Part shown: one piece after another, positions 29,162 through 31,127 of the stretch
How positions within the stretch are numbered: the stretch's first letter is position 1
Layout: the number at the start of each line of letters is the position of its first letter
Origin: an uncultured Hyphomicrobiales bacterium
GTDB taxonomy: Bacteria > Bacteroidota > Ignavibacteria > Kapaibacteriales > UBA2268
NCBI GenBank assembly: GCA_964499465.1
Contig: CAZCLJ010000002.1
Location: 1 to 51,075 of the forward strand
Length of the DNA: 51,075 nt
Direction of reading: 5' to 3'
Translations under genes and position numbers: made by a program
The notes under the pieces: model-generated
Told to the model about the DNA's origin: nothing
Databases searched by the model: none
What the model saw: only the letters and a program-made list of their open reading frames with translations

Positions 29162-29755
29162 TCATTTTTGAGATATCATTTTAACGACGCGATGCTGATG
29201 AGGGTTTGGGCATCCCGGATGCCCCGGATCGTCTATGACTTTCTCTTCATAAAAAACGGTGGTGAAATCAGAAAAAATATCTTTCAACTCCCCTTCCTTA
29301 AAAAACCCCTTATCGGTATTTTTATCAGAATCGCTTAAAAAACCAGAGACAACAACATACCCGCCGACGATCAATCCTTTTTTAATGTTTTCTATAACCG
29401 CCAAAACATCAGCCTTAGCCATAAACTGAAAAACATTAAAAGCATTGATAACAGAAAAACCGTTGGCCTTAATTAAAAAATCTTTAGCATCACCGCAGGC
29501 CAGTTCAATCATATCCTCCGGCAACTTAGCCATCTTTACTGTTTCTGAAATTTTATTCAGACCCTCTTGAGATTTATCAATAGCAACAACCTTAAACCCC
29601 TTTTTCAGCATAAAAAGCGAATCGCGACCTTGACCGTAGCCTAAATCTAAAAAAGTGGCTGGAGTGTCTATTTTTTCACTAACTATTTTTAATAAAGAAT
29701 TAGGGTCGACTCCCCAGACAGAATTGTTGTTTTTGTATATTTTATCGTATTTCAT
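29162..29755 (-). CDS. Class I SAM-dependent methyltransferase (TehB-like)
   Basis: FLDLGYGQGRDSLFMLKKGFKVVAIDKS (motif I plus the acidic post-I residue). 197 aa. Confidence 0.8.
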   Translation of the reverse strand: MKYDKIYKNNNSVWGVDPNSLLKIVSEKIDTPATFLDLGYGQGRDSLFMLKKGFKVVAIDKSQEGLNKISETVKMAKLPEDMIELACGDAKDFLIKANGFSVINAFNVFQFMAKADVLAVIENIKKGLIVGGYVVVSGFLSDSDKNTDKGFFKEGELKDIFSDFTTVFYEEKVIDDPGHPGCPNPHQHRVVKMISQK

Positions 29756-29771
29756 AGTTTTATTATAACAA
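29753..29771 (-). promoter_or_regulatory. Extended -10 promoter with leaderless geometry for the methyltransferase
   Basis: Minus strand: TGTTATAAT, then 6 nt, then the ATG. No SD. Confidence 0.35.
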
Positions 29772-29778
29772 ATTATTT

Positions 29779-29809
29779 AAAAAGCGATAGTCCCAAAGAG
29801 ACTACCGCT
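29779..29809 (-). terminator. Intrinsic terminator between the rSAM gene and the methyltransferase
   Basis: Minus strand: AGCGGTAGTC-loop-GACTATCGCT (10 bp, one G-U) followed by TTTTT. Confidence 0.65.
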
Positions 29810-29813
29810 CAAA

Positions 29814-30884
29814 CTACACACATCGCCAACATTGTGGATCTTTATCAAAAAAACTGCCTGTAGTGCCGGCAGAAACAGCATGACAACCTCTGCAATATTG
29901 CAAAAGATTGCAATCTTTACAACCAGAAAGATTTTCGACTTGACGATATTTTTCCATCTCTGGTGACAAAAATATATCTTTAAAACTCTGGGTATTAACA
30001 TCACCAACCAAACTATCAAATCTTCTACAAGCGTAAACCGTACCATTTGGAAGCAACGTCATATGAGAAATTCCACAATTACAACCATCAAAAATTATAT
30101 TCTTTTCTTCGCAAAGCTCATAAAGACCTTCTTCGTAAAGAAAAGGTGTCCACAGATGATCTTTTAACGAAAATTTGGTCTTGCCATCTATAAACCTAGA
30201 ATATACTGTCCACATTTCCGAAAGAAATTGTCTATAAAGTTTCGGAGACATACCATATTCAATATCTCCACGGGTTGGACAATAACGCGCAAAAGCAAAG
30301 TTCCCGACTTCATTATCAACACATAACTTAACCACATCGGCGACTTCTTGATAATTCAATAATGAAACCGTTGTCATTATCATGCTTCTAATTCCGTATT
30401 GATGTAAAAGAGGAATTGCTTCCATTGTTGCCTTAAAAGATCCCGATTTTCTCATTTTGTCGTGAGTTTCTTTTAAGCCGTCGAGGGACATTTGGTAATT
30501 TGCGCAACCGAAATTCTTTAGAAGCTGCAAATTATCAGGAGTGAGATGAAAAGGGTTCCCCAAAATTGTAAAACCGATTTCATGCTTTTTCAAAACTGCA
30601 AGCAGTTTCCAGACATCAGCATACAATAACGGATCTCCACCAGTAATTGAAAAATGAGGGATAACAGACATTTGCTCACAAAAATGAAGGAAATCAACGA
30701 TAATTTTCTCGGCTTGAGAGATGGTGGGGGTAGCTTTAAACCCTTCTTTTTCGTGTTTTTGCCAGATATAGCAATGCTGGCATCGTTGATCACATTTGTT
30801 AGTCAAATGCCATTGAAGACCGAATGTTTTTTTCACTACAACCTCCTGTTTTGGAAAATAAGGGGGAGAAAACTCCCCCTCCAT
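29814..30884 (-). CDS. Radical SAM / SPASM-domain peptide-modifying enzyme (intact)
   Basis: The CxxxCxxC is C31-DQR-C35-QH-C38, in WHLTNKCDQRCQHCY. GGDPLL follows. C-terminal auxiliary-cluster cysteines: DGCNCG...YACRRF, GCKDCNLLQYCRGC, QCWRC. Confidence 0.9.
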   Translation of the reverse strand: MEGEFSPPYFPKQEVVVKKTFGLQWHLTNKCDQRCQHCYIWQKHEKEGFKATPTISQAEKIIVDFLHFCEQMSVIPHFSITGGDPLLYADVWKLLAVLKKHEIGFTILGNPFHLTPDNLQLLKNFGCANYQMSLDGLKETHDKMRKSGSFKATMEAIPLLHQYGIRSMIMTTVSLLNYQEVADVVKLCVDNEVGNFAFARYCPTRGDIEYGMSPKLYRQFLSEMWTVYSRFIDGKTKFSLKDHLWTPFLYEEGLYELCEEKNIIFDGCNCGISHMTLLPNGTVYACRRFDSLVGDVNTQSFKDIFLSPEMEKYRQVENLSGCKDCNLLQYCRGCHAVSAGTTGSFFDKDPQCWRCV

Positions 30885-31042
30885 TATTCCCGCTCACTGT
30901 CGCAGCTGCCACCGCAACCACCCGAACAGCTGCAACGACCACGATCTGGATTTGACCCTGGATGCATTATAGTCTGAGCACTACCAGCAAATACGCGGTT
31001 AGATTTTCTATTCCAGTAATTGAACCGAGCCAGGCTTTTCAT
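30884..31042 (-). CDS. Candidate RiPP precursor peptide, 52 aa. Not in the ORF track.
   Basis: My translation: MKSLARFNYWNRKSNRVFAGSAQTIMHPGSNPDRGRCSCSGGCGGSCDSERE. SD AAGGTGA lies 6 nt upstream. The stop TAA overlaps the rSAM ATG (TAATG). Confidence 0.7.
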   Translation of the reverse strand: MKSLARFNYWNRKSNRVFAGSAQTIMHPGSNPDRGRCSCSGGCGGSCDSERE

Positions 31043-31098
31043 TTTTATCACCTTCTTTCTTTTGTTTTAAATGAGCTGGCGACTTGAATAACAAAAAA

Positions 31099-31127
31099 AG
31101 CATATCACAATGCTATACTTTTGTCAA
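31099..31127 (-). promoter_or_regulatory. Sigma70-like promoter for the peptide-rSAM operon
   Basis: Minus strand: TTGACA (31127-31122), 17-nt spacer, TATGCT (31104-31099). Confidence 0.55.

What the first reader, a model, noticed from the sequence alone, without database searches (positions are those of the whole stretch)
29162..31127. Unannotated Cys/Gly-rich 52-aa peptide coupled to an intact rSAM/SPASM enzyme: candidate RiPP cassette of unrecognised type
A 52-aa ORF is missing from the track because it is under 60 aa: MKSLARFNYWNRKSNRVFAGSAQTIMHPGSNPDRGRCSCSGGCGGSCDSERE. It sits directly 5' of the rSAM/SPASM gene. It has its own TTGACA-N17-TATGCT promoter and an AAGGTGA SD, and its TAA stop overlaps the enzyme's ATG (TAATG). 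The layout is about 35 aa of leader-like sequence, then a compact core with four Cys spaced CxCxxxCxxxC in a Gly/Ser matrix. This is what thioether-forming (sacti/ranthipeptide, SCIFF-like) or related rSAM maturases act on. The enzyme has the CxxxCxxC starting at residue 31, so there is no room for an N-terminal RRE domain, and it has a full set of SPASM cysteines. A terminator and then a separately promoted TehB-like methyltransferase follow. I do not recognise the peptide family. From memory, Cys-Gly repeat substrates such as ACGX-repeat or SCIFF peptides are the nearest analogues, and this needs verification.
Basis: partly seen in the sequence, partly recalled or inferred. Interest (0 to 1): 0.78.

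Follow-up and report, generated by a model that had tools for sequence, protein, structure and literature searches.

The report
Mobile Cys-rich peptide maturation cassette
A three-gene unit (a short cysteine-rich precursor peptide, a radical-SAM enzyme of the catalogued but untested "ACGX" family, and a TehB-like methyltransferase) sits on a 2.4-kb islet inserted into a tRNA-Ser gene of a probable Patescibacteria genome; it is a real, conserved variant of a known kind of peptide-modification system, not a wholly new one.

Summary
On the minus strand a 52-aa ORF (30884-31042) precedes an intact rSAM/SPASM gene and a TehB-like methyltransferase. The type is not unrecognised: the enzyme passes the curated cutoff of NCBIfam TIGR04340, "radical SAM/SPASM protein, ACGX system" (430 vs 400 bits). 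About 67 of 80 homologous loci carry a short Cys-rich ORF just upstream.

The peptide is a genuine family member. A leader-only HMM built from relatives finds it alone among 1,412 six-frame segments (E=7e-7). Its core (CxCx3Cx3C in Gly/Ser) is not an ACGX repeat. The curated peptide model misses the whole subfamily, whose named members are all "hypothetical protein".

Corrections and additions:
- The enzyme starts at a GTG (30836) after a conserved hairpin, not at the TAATG overlap.
- The methyltransferase is a conserved part of this subtype (0 of 38 canonical ACGX loci, 22 CxC-type loci).
- The cassette is a 2,394-bp insertion at the 3' end of tRNA-Ser(GGA). It is bounded by perfect 26-nt repeats, and a related genome shows the empty site.

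The chemistry is inferred. The nearest characterised family is SbtM (Cys to thiooxazole). Verdict: a new variant of a known, uncharacterised kind, of moderate interest.

The parts
31383..31470 (-). tRNA-Ser(GGA), intact; integration target (attL side)
   Evidence: ARAGORN; Rfam tRNA 54.2 bits; 100% identical over 90 nt to the tRNA in L089
31382..31407 (-). 26-nt direct repeat, copy 1 (the 3' end of tRNA-Ser)
   Evidence: Perfect repeat TGCGGAGAGTGAGGGATTTGAACCCT
28988..31381 (-). 2,394-bp inserted islet carrying only the three-gene cassette and its signals
   Evidence: Bounded by the 26-nt repeats. The empty site in related genome L089 joins the tRNA directly to the flank that follows the displaced copy in the window
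31099..31127 (-). sigma-70-like promoter TTGACA-N17-(TG)TATGCT for the precursor
   Evidence: Consensus scan, 10 of 12 matches with TG; consensus match only
31048..31054 (-). Shine-Dalgarno AAGGTGA, 5 nt before the precursor ATG
   Evidence: Sequence; 5' UTR conserved with L081
30884..31042 (-). Precursor peptide, 52 aa plus stop: leader about residues 1-35 (FNYW...SAQ motif), core RCSCSGGCGGSCDSERE
   Evidence: ORF; leader HMM E=6.9e-7 to 1.6e-9, unique in the window; in-frame DNA alignment with L081; family profile hits down to E=1e-21
30860..30881 (-). GC-rich hairpin plus U-rich tail directly after the precursor stop (putative leaky terminator or transcript stabiliser)
   Evidence: dG -22.8, z -2.5. 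Equivalent hairpins with different sequences in L081, L083, L001-L003 and L086-L088
30842..30847 (-). Shine-Dalgarno AGGAGG of the enzyme, 5 nt before the GTG
   Evidence: Sequence
29814..30836 (-). rSAM/SPASM maturase, 340 aa from the GTG at 30836 (ACGX-system family, TIGR04340)
   Evidence: 430.5 bits vs cutoff 400, model positions 2-341 of 341; N-termini of 34 homologues align with this start; AF2 pLDDT 90.7, nearest folds SuiB, SkfB and anSME
29777..29810 (-). Terminator-like hairpin (stem GCGGTAGTC...GACTATCGC) plus U-run after the enzyme
   Evidence: dG -18.3, z -4.6, 0 of 200 shuffles fold as well; stem GCGATAG..CTATCGC conserved in L081, L083, L084, L086, L088, L001 and L002
29762..29767 (-). 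TATAAT box (TGnTATAAT) 6 nt before the methyltransferase ATG, with no SD: implies a leaderless or near-leaderless mRNA
   Evidence: Sequence; the same layout in relatives; function inferred
29162..29755 (-). TehB-like class I SAM methyltransferase, 197 aa
   Evidence: Pfam TehB 66.4 bits; nearest PDB entries are TehB 3m70, 2xva and 4dq0; immediately downstream of the enzyme in all close relatives
28962..28987 (-). 26-nt direct repeat, copy 2 (displaced tRNA 3' fragment, attR side)
   Evidence: no tRNA body is attached

Best explanation
This is a self-contained three-gene RiPP module: precursor, then rSAM/SPASM maturase, then methyltransferase. It belongs to the bioinformatically defined ACGX system, but to a distinct subtype. 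In this subtype the precursors keep the family leader (N-x-W ... S/T-A/V-Q-x-V/I-L/M) and carry Cys/Gly/Ser cores with CxC and Cx3C spacing instead of ACGX repeats, and a TehB-like methyltransferase is always attached. Shown here: enzyme family membership; homology and in-frame conservation of the peptide; gene order; the linked methyltransferase; conserved hairpins in both spacers; and insertion of the whole module as a 2.4-kb islet at the 3' end of tRNA-Ser(GGA), with an empty site in a related genome. Inferred expression logic: the promoter at 31127-31099 drives the precursor. The hairpin after its stop codon lets only part of the transcripts read on into the enzyme gene, which is translated from its own AGGAGG-GTG. 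A second terminator follows. The methyltransferase is then made from its own TATAAT box as a leaderless or short-leader mRNA. Inferred chemistry: the maturase has no RRE domain and binds the conserved leader directly. It uses a 5'-deoxyadenosyl radical, with two auxiliary SPASM clusters, to modify the core cysteines. The nearest characterised family is SbtM, so the most likely product is Cys converted to 5-thiooxazole (loss of 4 H per site); my estimate is about 0.35. The exocyclic thiol would then be a natural substrate for the TehB/TPMT-like methyltransferase, giving S-methylation (+14 Da). Thioether cross-linking is the main alternative for the chemistry. The confidence figure given is for the module assignment, not for the chemistry.
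For: Enzyme: TIGR04340 430 bits against a cutoff of 400, over the full model length. It retains all 62-68 columns that are invariant in the family, including CX3CX2C and the SPASM cysteines. The AF2 model has pLDDT 90.7, and its nearest folds are peptide- or protein-modifying SPASM/twitch enzymes. Peptide: about 67 of 80 homologous loci have an upstream same-strand Cys-rich small ORF. The leader-only HMM hits the window ORF uniquely. The profile finds 51 clusters (E down to 1e-21) and 44 representatives, and 43 of the 44 are 47-90 aa. The closest relative's gene aligns in frame with the same start and stop. Methyltransferase linkage. Hairpins. Islet. Chemistry lead: SbtM model 204-228 bits across the clade, against 110 bits or less for any other family. 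SbtM converts Cys or Sec to thio(seleno)oxazole with loss of 4 H (PMC11002830). TehB-type motifs are present in the methyltransferase.
Against: No member of TIGR04340 has been characterised in the literature I could search, so the chemistry is an extrapolation from a paralogous family whose cutoff (350 bits) is not met. SbtM also carries an N-terminal extension of about 190 aa that is absent here. The window's core is an outlier in its own subfamily: the first Cys and both Asn of the near-invariant CGxGSCNCGGGCNGEC are missing, and 11 linker codons are deleted, so it may be processed differently or less well. There is no protease or exporter in the islet, so leader removal and export are unexplained. 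The promoter calls are consensus matches with no enrichment over shuffles. No integrase accompanies the islet.
Confidence: 0.8

Rival explanations
1. Same module, different chemistry: the maturase forms intramolecular thioether cross-links (sactionine or ranthionine type, as in SCIFF/CteB, PapB and SkfB) between core cysteines and neighbouring residues. The methyltransferase caps a remaining thiol or carboxylate.
For: Cys-rich short precursor and SPASM enzyme. SkfB, SuiB and CteB are the nearest solved sequences and folds. The Asn residues in the subfamily core CNCGGGCNGEC are strongly conserved, and Cys-Asn beta-thioethers are known in ranthipeptides (PMC11002830).
Against: HMM similarity to thioether-forming families is far weaker than to SbtM: PapB 70, SkfB 59, SCIFF maturase not in the top 25, SbtM 204-206 bits. 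No structure of SbtM is available, so the structural ranking cannot discriminate. The window's core has no Asn and almost only Gly/Ser as possible acceptors. Canonical ACGX cores are just as poor in acceptors.
Confidence: 0.25
2. The cassette in this genome is a decaying or altered copy: the enzyme and methyltransferase are intact, but the precursor core has drifted away from the substrate consensus and is poorly modified or unmodified.
For: The core lacks the first Cys and both Asn of the near-invariant subfamily motif, and the linker has an 11-codon deletion. The peptide is only 56% identical to that of the closest relative, while the enzyme and MTase are 83% identical.
Against: The ORF is in frame with the same start, stop and SD. 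The deletion is a clean multiple of three. More distant family members have comparably varied cores, e.g. P0178 CSCSGECSSCSGE. The enzyme keeps all invariant residues. The perfect 26-nt repeats argue for a recent insertion.
Confidence: 0.1
3. It is not a natural-product pathway but a metal or metalloid handling unit: a metallothionein-like Cys-rich peptide plus a TehB-type tellurite/selenite methyltransferase, with the rSAM enzyme tuning the metal-binding properties of the peptide.
For: TehB is the closest family of the methyltransferase. CxC and Cx3C motifs resemble metal sites. Thiooxazole RiPPs such as bufferins and related peptides are copper-binding (PMC12538549). No exporter or protease is linked.
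Against: The MTase scores far below every TehB equivalog cutoff (60-70 bits against 218-303). A conserved 35-aa leader and strict peptide-enzyme pairing are RiPP hallmarks. This reading concerns the role of the product and does not exclude RiPP maturation.
Confidence: 0.07
4. The small ORF is a chance ORF and the enzyme acts on a non-peptide or large-protein substrate (for example like anSME or heme/cofactor SPASM enzymes).
For: anSME is a close structural neighbour of the same size and also lacks an RRE. AhbD and NirJ models give 90-106 bits.
Against: All those models score far below their cutoffs. The ORF is conserved in frame, has a family-wide leader, and is the only window ORF hit by the leader HMM.
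Confidence: 0.02

Closest known systems
ACGX system (NCBIfam TIGR04340 rSAM_ACGX maturase plus TIGR04341 ACGX-repeat peptide); defined in silico, with no experimental paper found
   Same: The enzyme passes the curated cutoff over the full model length. The gene order is peptide then enzyme. A short Cys-rich precursor is present. A leader element ...(S/T)AQxY/V(L/M) is visible in many canonical peptides and is weakly detected by the leader HMM (6-13 bits).
   Different: The core has no ACGX repeat, and TIGR04341 gives no hit even at E<=10, while canonical peptides score 51-59 bits. A TehB-like methyltransferase is linked here and in 22 CxC-type loci but in 0 of 38 canonical loci. The clade scores at the edge of the model, 398-458 bits against 492 for a canonical member. 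The hosts are mostly Patescibacteria.
SbtM thio(seleno)oxazole RiPP system (TIGR04082)
   Same: It is the nearest characterised rSAM/SPASM family, homologous over the whole catalytic and SPASM region (204-228 bits). Its target residue is Cys or Sec in a short precursor (PMC11002830).
   Different: The score is below the 350-bit cutoff. The match covers only model positions about 191-515, so the N-terminal domain of about 190 aa is absent. There is no TGA/SECIS-type selenocysteine precursor.
SCIFF/ranthipeptide and sactipeptide maturases (CteB, PapB, SkfB)
   Same: They are SPASM or twitch rSAM enzymes acting on Cys-rich leader peptides, and they are among the nearest solved structures.
   Different: HMM scores are weak (70 bits or less). 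They carry an N-terminal RRE domain that this enzyme lacks.
Anaerobic sulfatase-maturing enzyme (anSME)
   Same: Same size and domain layout, no RRE, two auxiliary clusters, acts on the C-beta of Cys or Ser (TM 0.76/0.72).
   Different: 72.5 bits against a cutoff of 349. There is no sulfatase context. A dedicated small precursor is present.
TehB / TPMT-type chalcogen methyltransferases
   Same: Pfam TehB 66 bits. The LDLGxGxGRNSL-type SAM motif is present, with about 30% identity over 147 aa to the TehB structures.
   Different: It scores below all TehB equivalog cutoffs. It is strictly linked to a RiPP maturase. Its substrate is unknown.
tRNA-integrated genomic islands (attL/attR from a duplicated tRNA 3' end)
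   Same: The layout is intact tRNA, inserted DNA, then a displaced perfect 26-nt 3' fragment. An empty site exists in a related genome, and islands have accreted in tandem at the same tRNA.
   Different: It is only 2.4 kb and carries no integrase or excisionase.

Membership tests
ACGX system (TIGR04340/TIGR04341) | Maturase scores above the curated TIGR04340 cutoff (400 bits) | tested here: met
   430.3 bits (356-aa ORF) and 430.5 bits (340-aa protein), model positions 2-341 of 341
ACGX system (TIGR04340/TIGR04341) | Radical SAM CX3CX2C plus full SPASM cysteine set | tested here: met
   C15/C19/C22; C252-X12-G265-X4-C270; C306-X2-C309-X5-C315-X2-C318; C336. All are invariant in 50 homologues. 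Pfam Radical_SAM 85 bits and SPASM 39 bits
ACGX system (TIGR04340/TIGR04341) | Adjacent precursor with tandem ACGX tetrapeptide repeats that matches TIGR04341 (cutoff 28 bits) | tested here: not met
   No hit at E<=10. The sequence contains no ACG. The positive control worked: canonical peptides score 51.5 and 59.3 bits
ACGX system (TIGR04340/TIGR04341) | Short Cys-rich precursor gene immediately upstream on the same strand | tested here: met
   Window; about 67 of 80 homologous loci
CxC-type precursor subfamily (unnamed; leader FNYW..SAQ, Cys/Gly/Ser core) | Leader homologous to that of peptides next to close enzyme relatives | tested here: met
   Leader HMM E=1.6e-9, and 6.9e-7 when close relatives are excluded; next best window segment E=0.46
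CxC-type precursor subfamily (unnamed; leader FNYW..SAQ, Cys/Gly/Ser core) | Core motif CGxGSCNCGGGCNGEC | tested here: inconclusive
   The window has RGRCSCSGGCGGSC. The CxCx3Cx3C spacing is kept, but the first Cys and both Asn are lost. Distant members vary similarly
CxC-type precursor subfamily (unnamed; leader FNYW..SAQ, Cys/Gly/Ser core) | TehB-like methyltransferase downstream of the maturase | tested here: met
   Window 29162-29755. Present in all loci with an enzyme at least 50% identical (L001-L009, L081-L088)
SbtM thio(seleno)oxazole maturase (TIGR04082) | Score above the 350-bit cutoff, including the N-terminal domain | tested here: not met
   203.7-206.5 bits, covering model positions 191-515 only
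SbtM thio(seleno)oxazole maturase (TIGR04082) | Converts Cys or Sec to thio(seleno)oxazole (-4 H) | not testable with these tools
   Needs mass spectrometry and NMR of the co-expressed peptide
Sacti/ranthipeptide (SCIFF) maturases | Family HMM above cutoff and an N-terminal RRE domain | tested here: not met
   PapB 69.8 bits vs 340; SkfB 58.7 vs 300; SCIFF maturase not in the top 25. PDB matches start at chain residues 99-136, so there is no RRE
Anaerobic sulfatase maturase | TIGR03942 above 349 bits | tested here: not met
   72.5 bits
TehB tellurite methyltransferase | Equivalog models above cutoff (218-303 bits) | tested here: not met
   60.6-69.7 bits. Only the Pfam domain-level TehB model is met, at 66.4 bits against 20.4
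tRNA-integrated genomic island | Direct repeat of the tRNA 3' end bounding the insert, and an empty site in a relative | tested here: met
   Perfect 26-nt repeat; L089 empty site
tRNA-integrated genomic island | Tyrosine or serine integrase carried on the island | tested here: not met
   The islet has only three genes. No integrase domain was found in the ORFs of at least 130 aa between 16.8 and 28.7 kb; the only hit is an IS3-type rve transposase at 22924-23748

The most novel reading that the evidence does not exclude
The CxC-type subfamily is a distinct, uncharacterised RiPP class found mostly in Patescibacteria. An RRE-less ACGX-family rSAM enzyme converts clustered cysteines to 5-thiooxazoles (or another new Cys-derived structure). 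A dedicated TehB/TPMT-like enzyme then S-methylates them. The minimal peptide-enzyme-methyltransferase unit spreads as an integrase-less islet that targets the 3' end of tRNA-Ser.
Probability: 0.2. Interest if true: 0.7.

Novelty: new variant of a known kind. Interest (0 to 1): 0.5.

Why it matters
The ACGX maturase family is large: over 3,000 clusters at E<1e-20, spanning gut Bacteroidales, Clostridia, methanogens and Patescibacteria. I found no experimental characterisation of it. This locus defines a compact, clearly delimited subtype: a 52-63-aa precursor, a 340-aa enzyme without an RRE, and a 197-aa methyltransferase. That makes it an unusually small and tractable entry point for finding out what these enzymes do.

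It also shows three further things. Curated peptide models miss a whole precursor subfamily that is currently labelled 'hypothetical protein' or not called at all. A TehB-like methyltransferase has been recruited into a RiPP pathway. And reduced-genome Patescibacteria acquire such modules horizontally at a tRNA gene, documented here with an empty site.

Tried and rejected
- **Literature:** 'ACGX' plus 'radical SAM', and 'TIGR04340', gave no papers. 'thiooxazole' plus 'radical SAM' plus 'SPASM' gave only reviews and MNIO papers. The primary SbtM paper (PMC8935624) is not held, so the SbtM substrate motif could not be compared.
- **Single-sequence search with the 52-aa peptide:** no candidates. 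The profile search worked instead.
- **NCBIfam and Pfam on the peptide:** nothing, even at E<=10.
- **Base composition of the islet:** not distinguishable from the surroundings.
- **Exact empty-site junction pattern in metagenomes:** no match. Searching with the tRNA sequence itself found the empty site.
- **att-like repeats in L008 and L003:** none found. L006 has only degenerate tRNA-like flanking repeats.
- **Rfam on the region:** only the tRNA passed its threshold.
- **Integrase in the 13-kb variable region:** none found.
- **Disrupted second rSAM/SPASM gene:** it is not ACGX-type, so it was rejected as a sibling cassette.
- **Leader homology between CxC-type and canonical ACGX peptides:** only weak (6-13 bits), so it is reported as suggestive only.
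- **Foldseek:** it cannot discriminate the chemistry, because all SPASM peptide enzymes score alike.
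Full report
**1. What is in the sequence**

All features of the finding lie on the minus strand.
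- The 52-aa ORF with the quoted sequence is at 30884-31042.
- An ORF of 356 aa (from its first ATG) is at 29814-30884.
- A 197-aa ORF is at 29162-29755.

The promoter-like TTGACA-N17-TATGCT (with TG) is at 31127-31099. It is one of the three best-scoring sites (10 of 12) in the region. Promoter-like sites as a class are not enriched there, with 11 found against 7.9+/-3.2 in shuffles. AAGGTGA lies 5 nt before the peptide ATG. The peptide's TAA does overlap an ATG (TAATG).

**2. The enzyme**

The enzyme hits NCBIfam TIGR04340, 'radical SAM/SPASM domain protein, ACGX system', at 430 bits against a curated cutoff of 400.
- The next family is SbtM (TIGR04082) at 206 bits, below its cutoff of 350.
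- Everything else scores 110 bits or less, including the anaerobic sulfatase maturase (72.5 vs 349), PapB (70) and SkfB (59).
- A database search gave 3,050 clusters at E<1e-20. Many are already named 'ACGX system', and the named ones among the closest 105 are Patescibacteria.

In an alignment of 35 members, 29 of the 34 homologues begin within four residues of the position aligned with V17 of the window ORF, and the five longer N-terminal extensions are not conserved. That codon is a GTG at 30836, preceded by AGGAGG at a 5-nt spacing. The 340-aa protein covers model positions 2-341 of 341. The functional start is therefore almost certainly this GTG, not the ATG of TAATG.

CX3CX2C and a complete SPASM cysteine set are invariant in the family. 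An AlphaFold model is confident (pLDDT 90.7). Its nearest solved folds are SuiB, SkfB, anSME, PqqE, TigE, ChlB and CteB, all SPASM or twitch enzymes acting on peptides or proteins. Sequence matches to SkfB, SuiB and CteB start at residues 99-136 of those chains, so the N-terminal RRE domain is absent here.

**3. The peptide**

I fetched 80 loci encoding enzyme homologues. About 67 of them have a short Cys-rich ORF directly upstream on the same strand. The peptides fall into types:
- Bacteroidales, Lachnospiraceae and others carry canonical ACGS/ACGA repeats. These hit the curated peptide model TIGR04341 at 51-59 bits, against a cutoff of 28.
- The closest relatives of the window carry a different peptide that TIGR04341 does not see.

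The peptides in the closest relatives (L081-L088, L001-L008) share a leader, (M)K.L..FNYW.K......HSAQ.VL, and a near-invariant core, CG(Q/A)GSCNCGGGCNGEC.

A leader-only HMM was built without the window peptide and without the four sequences from the closest relatives (L081, L083, L084). It finds the window ORF as the single significant hit among 1,412 six-frame segments (E=6.9e-7; next best 0.46). A family profile finds 51 clusters in 5.8 billion proteins, with E down to 1e-21. Every one that carries a name is 'hypothetical protein', and none has a Pfam domain. An exhaustive search of 1.84 billion representatives finds 44 hits, all 47-90 aa apart from one spurious repetitive protein.

At the DNA level the window gene aligns in frame with that of the closest relative (L081; enzyme 83% identical), with the same start and stop. 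It differs by a clean 33-nt deletion in the linker, a TGC-to-CGT change at the first core Cys, and Asn-to-Ser/Gly changes. The window peptide is thus a real family member with an outlier core. More distant members show similar variation.

**4. The methyltransferase**

It is TehB-like:
- Pfam TehB scores 66 bits.
- The nearest PDB entries are the TehB structures 3m70, 2xva and 4dq0, at about 30% identity with the SAM motif conserved.
- It scores far below the TehB equivalog cutoffs.

It follows the enzyme directly in every close relative. Across all loci it occurs in 22 CxC-type loci and in none of 38 canonical ACGX loci. It is therefore a conserved third component of this subtype.

**5. Regulatory architecture**

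A GC-rich hairpin with a U-rich tail sits directly after the precursor stop (30860-30881; dG -22.8, z -2.5). Equivalent hairpins with different sequences occur in L081, L083, L001-L003 and L086-L088. This is the layout known from many bacteriocin and lantibiotic operons, where a leaky terminator keeps the precursor transcript in excess (established knowledge; the function here is inferred).

After the enzyme comes a strong hairpin with a U-run (29777-29810; z -4.6). Its stem, GCGATAG...CTATCGC, is conserved in sequence across relatives. A TATAAT box follows 6-8 nt before the methyltransferase ATG, with no Shine-Dalgarno sequence. This implies a separate promoter and a leaderless or near-leaderless mRNA (inferred).

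**6. Mobility**

A perfect 26-nt direct repeat (28962-28987 and 31382-31407) brackets the cassette. The second copy is the 3' end of tRNA-Ser(GGA) at 31383-31470.

A metagenome contig from a related genome, L089, provides the empty site. Its gatA is about 75% identical in nucleotides and its tRNA-Ser is 100% identical. In L089 the tRNA 3' end is followed directly by GAAACAATTTAGTATCGTGCAGACCC. In the window this flank follows only the displaced 26-nt copy.

Window 28988-31381 (2,394 bp) is therefore an insertion that carries only the three genes. No integrase is present.

A third, degenerate att-like copy with the same flank lies at about 24610-24699. Relative to L089 the window has about 13.4 kb of extra DNA at this tRNA, which indicates tandem accretion of islands. 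In L008, a different lineage (enzyme 52% identical), the cassette also lies just downstream of a tRNA-Ser(GGA).

**7. Mechanism**

Shown: family membership of the enzyme, homology of the precursor, conserved three-gene order, conserved hairpins, and insertion at the tRNA.

Inferred:
- The maturase recognises the conserved leader without an RRE domain.
- It modifies the core cysteines, the only residue type common to all core variants.

The nearest characterised family is SbtM. It converts Cys or Sec to thio(seleno)oxazole with loss of four hydrogens (PMC11002830), and the product absorbs at 302-305 nm (PMC12538549). This makes thiooxazole formation the best-supported guess; I put it at about 0.35. 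The resulting heteroaromatic thiol would be a chemically natural substrate for a methyltransferase of the TehB/TPMT type. Thioether cross-linking is the main rival, at about 0.25. No paper on the ACGX system was found.

**8. Verdict**

- The finding is real and is a RiPP cassette.
- Its enzyme belongs to a catalogued but experimentally uncharacterised family, so it is not of 'unrecognised type'.
- It represents a distinct subtype: non-ACGX Cys/Gly/Ser cores, an obligatory TehB-like methyltransferase, and mostly Patescibacteria hosts. Curated peptide models miss this subtype.
- Here it sits on a minimal tRNA-integrated islet.
- Novelty: a new variant of a known kind. Interest: moderate (0.5).

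Noticed in passing
window 28962-28987 and 31382-31407; L089 7544-7666: A perfect 26-nt repeat of the tRNA-Ser(GGA) 3' end brackets the cassette. Related contig L089 shows the uninterrupted (empty) site, so the cassette is a 2.4-kb integrase-less insertion.
   Followed up: yes
window about 24610-24699 and 24700-28890: A third, degenerate tRNA-3'-like fragment with the same downstream flank (GAGACAATTTAGTATCGTGCAGACCCGAG). It bounds a second block carrying CYTH, carbamoyltransferase, epimerase and a GT4 fragment. Relative to L089 the window has about 13.4 kb extra (17944-31382) at this tRNA: tandem island accretion.
   Followed up: partly
window 22205-24460 (-): A second rSAM/SPASM gene appears to be split by an IS3-like element. 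The pieces are a SPASM-only ORF at 22205-22927, an rve transposase at 22924-23748 with an OrfA-like HTH upstream, and a radical-SAM barrel fragment at 24239-24460. It is not ACGX-type.
   Followed up: partly
window 27915-28658 (-) and 27178-27981 (+): The GT4 ORF has only the N-terminal domain (247 aa), and its 3' end overlaps the convergent epimerase ORF. These may be truncated genes at the edge of island B.
   Followed up: no
window 29782-29810; L081, L083, L084, L086, L088, L001, L002 enzyme-MTase spacers: The stem of the post-enzyme hairpin is conserved in sequence (GCGATAG...CTATCGC), not only in structure. It could also be a protein-binding palindrome (operator) overlapping the terminator.
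   Followed up: no
L081 1532-2739; L083 1-942: Close relatives carry additional, different rSAM-plus-Cys-rich-peptide pairs nearby (L081: 347-aa rSAM plus a 52-aa peptide ending ...DCNNDCDCNCGCGGGGNCDP; L083: 439-aa rSAM plus a 39-aa peptide ending ...CEACQCAPYCACEGYE).
   Followed up: no
L084 264-734 (also L085): Two tandem precursor genes (63 aa and 84 aa as called) with the same leader but different cores precede one maturase.
   Followed up: no
L004-L008, between enzyme and TehB-like MTase (e.g. L008 4068-4838, opposite strand): An extra class I methyltransferase gene of about 256 aa lies between the maturase and the TehB-like methyltransferase in this sub-clade.
   Followed up: no
L083 7781-9020; L086 1157-3967; L088 1798-3426: A HisKA_7TM histidine kinase lies within a few kb of the cassette in three different relatives. 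None is adjacent in the window.
   Followed up: no
L006 2320-2415 and 5609-5718; L008 2202-2293: In L006 the cassette is flanked by imperfect repeats of about 100 nt that end in tRNA-Ser-3'-like CTCTCCGC. In L008 an intact tRNA-Ser(GGA) lies about 420 nt upstream of the precursor. This suggests recurrent association with tRNA-Ser.
   Followed up: partly
L086 about 4700-4990; L088 4760-5008: Gene callers missed the precursor (L086) or called it in the wrong frame (L088). The window's own peptide is also absent from the protein collection. The true size of this peptide family is therefore underestimated.
   Followed up: partly
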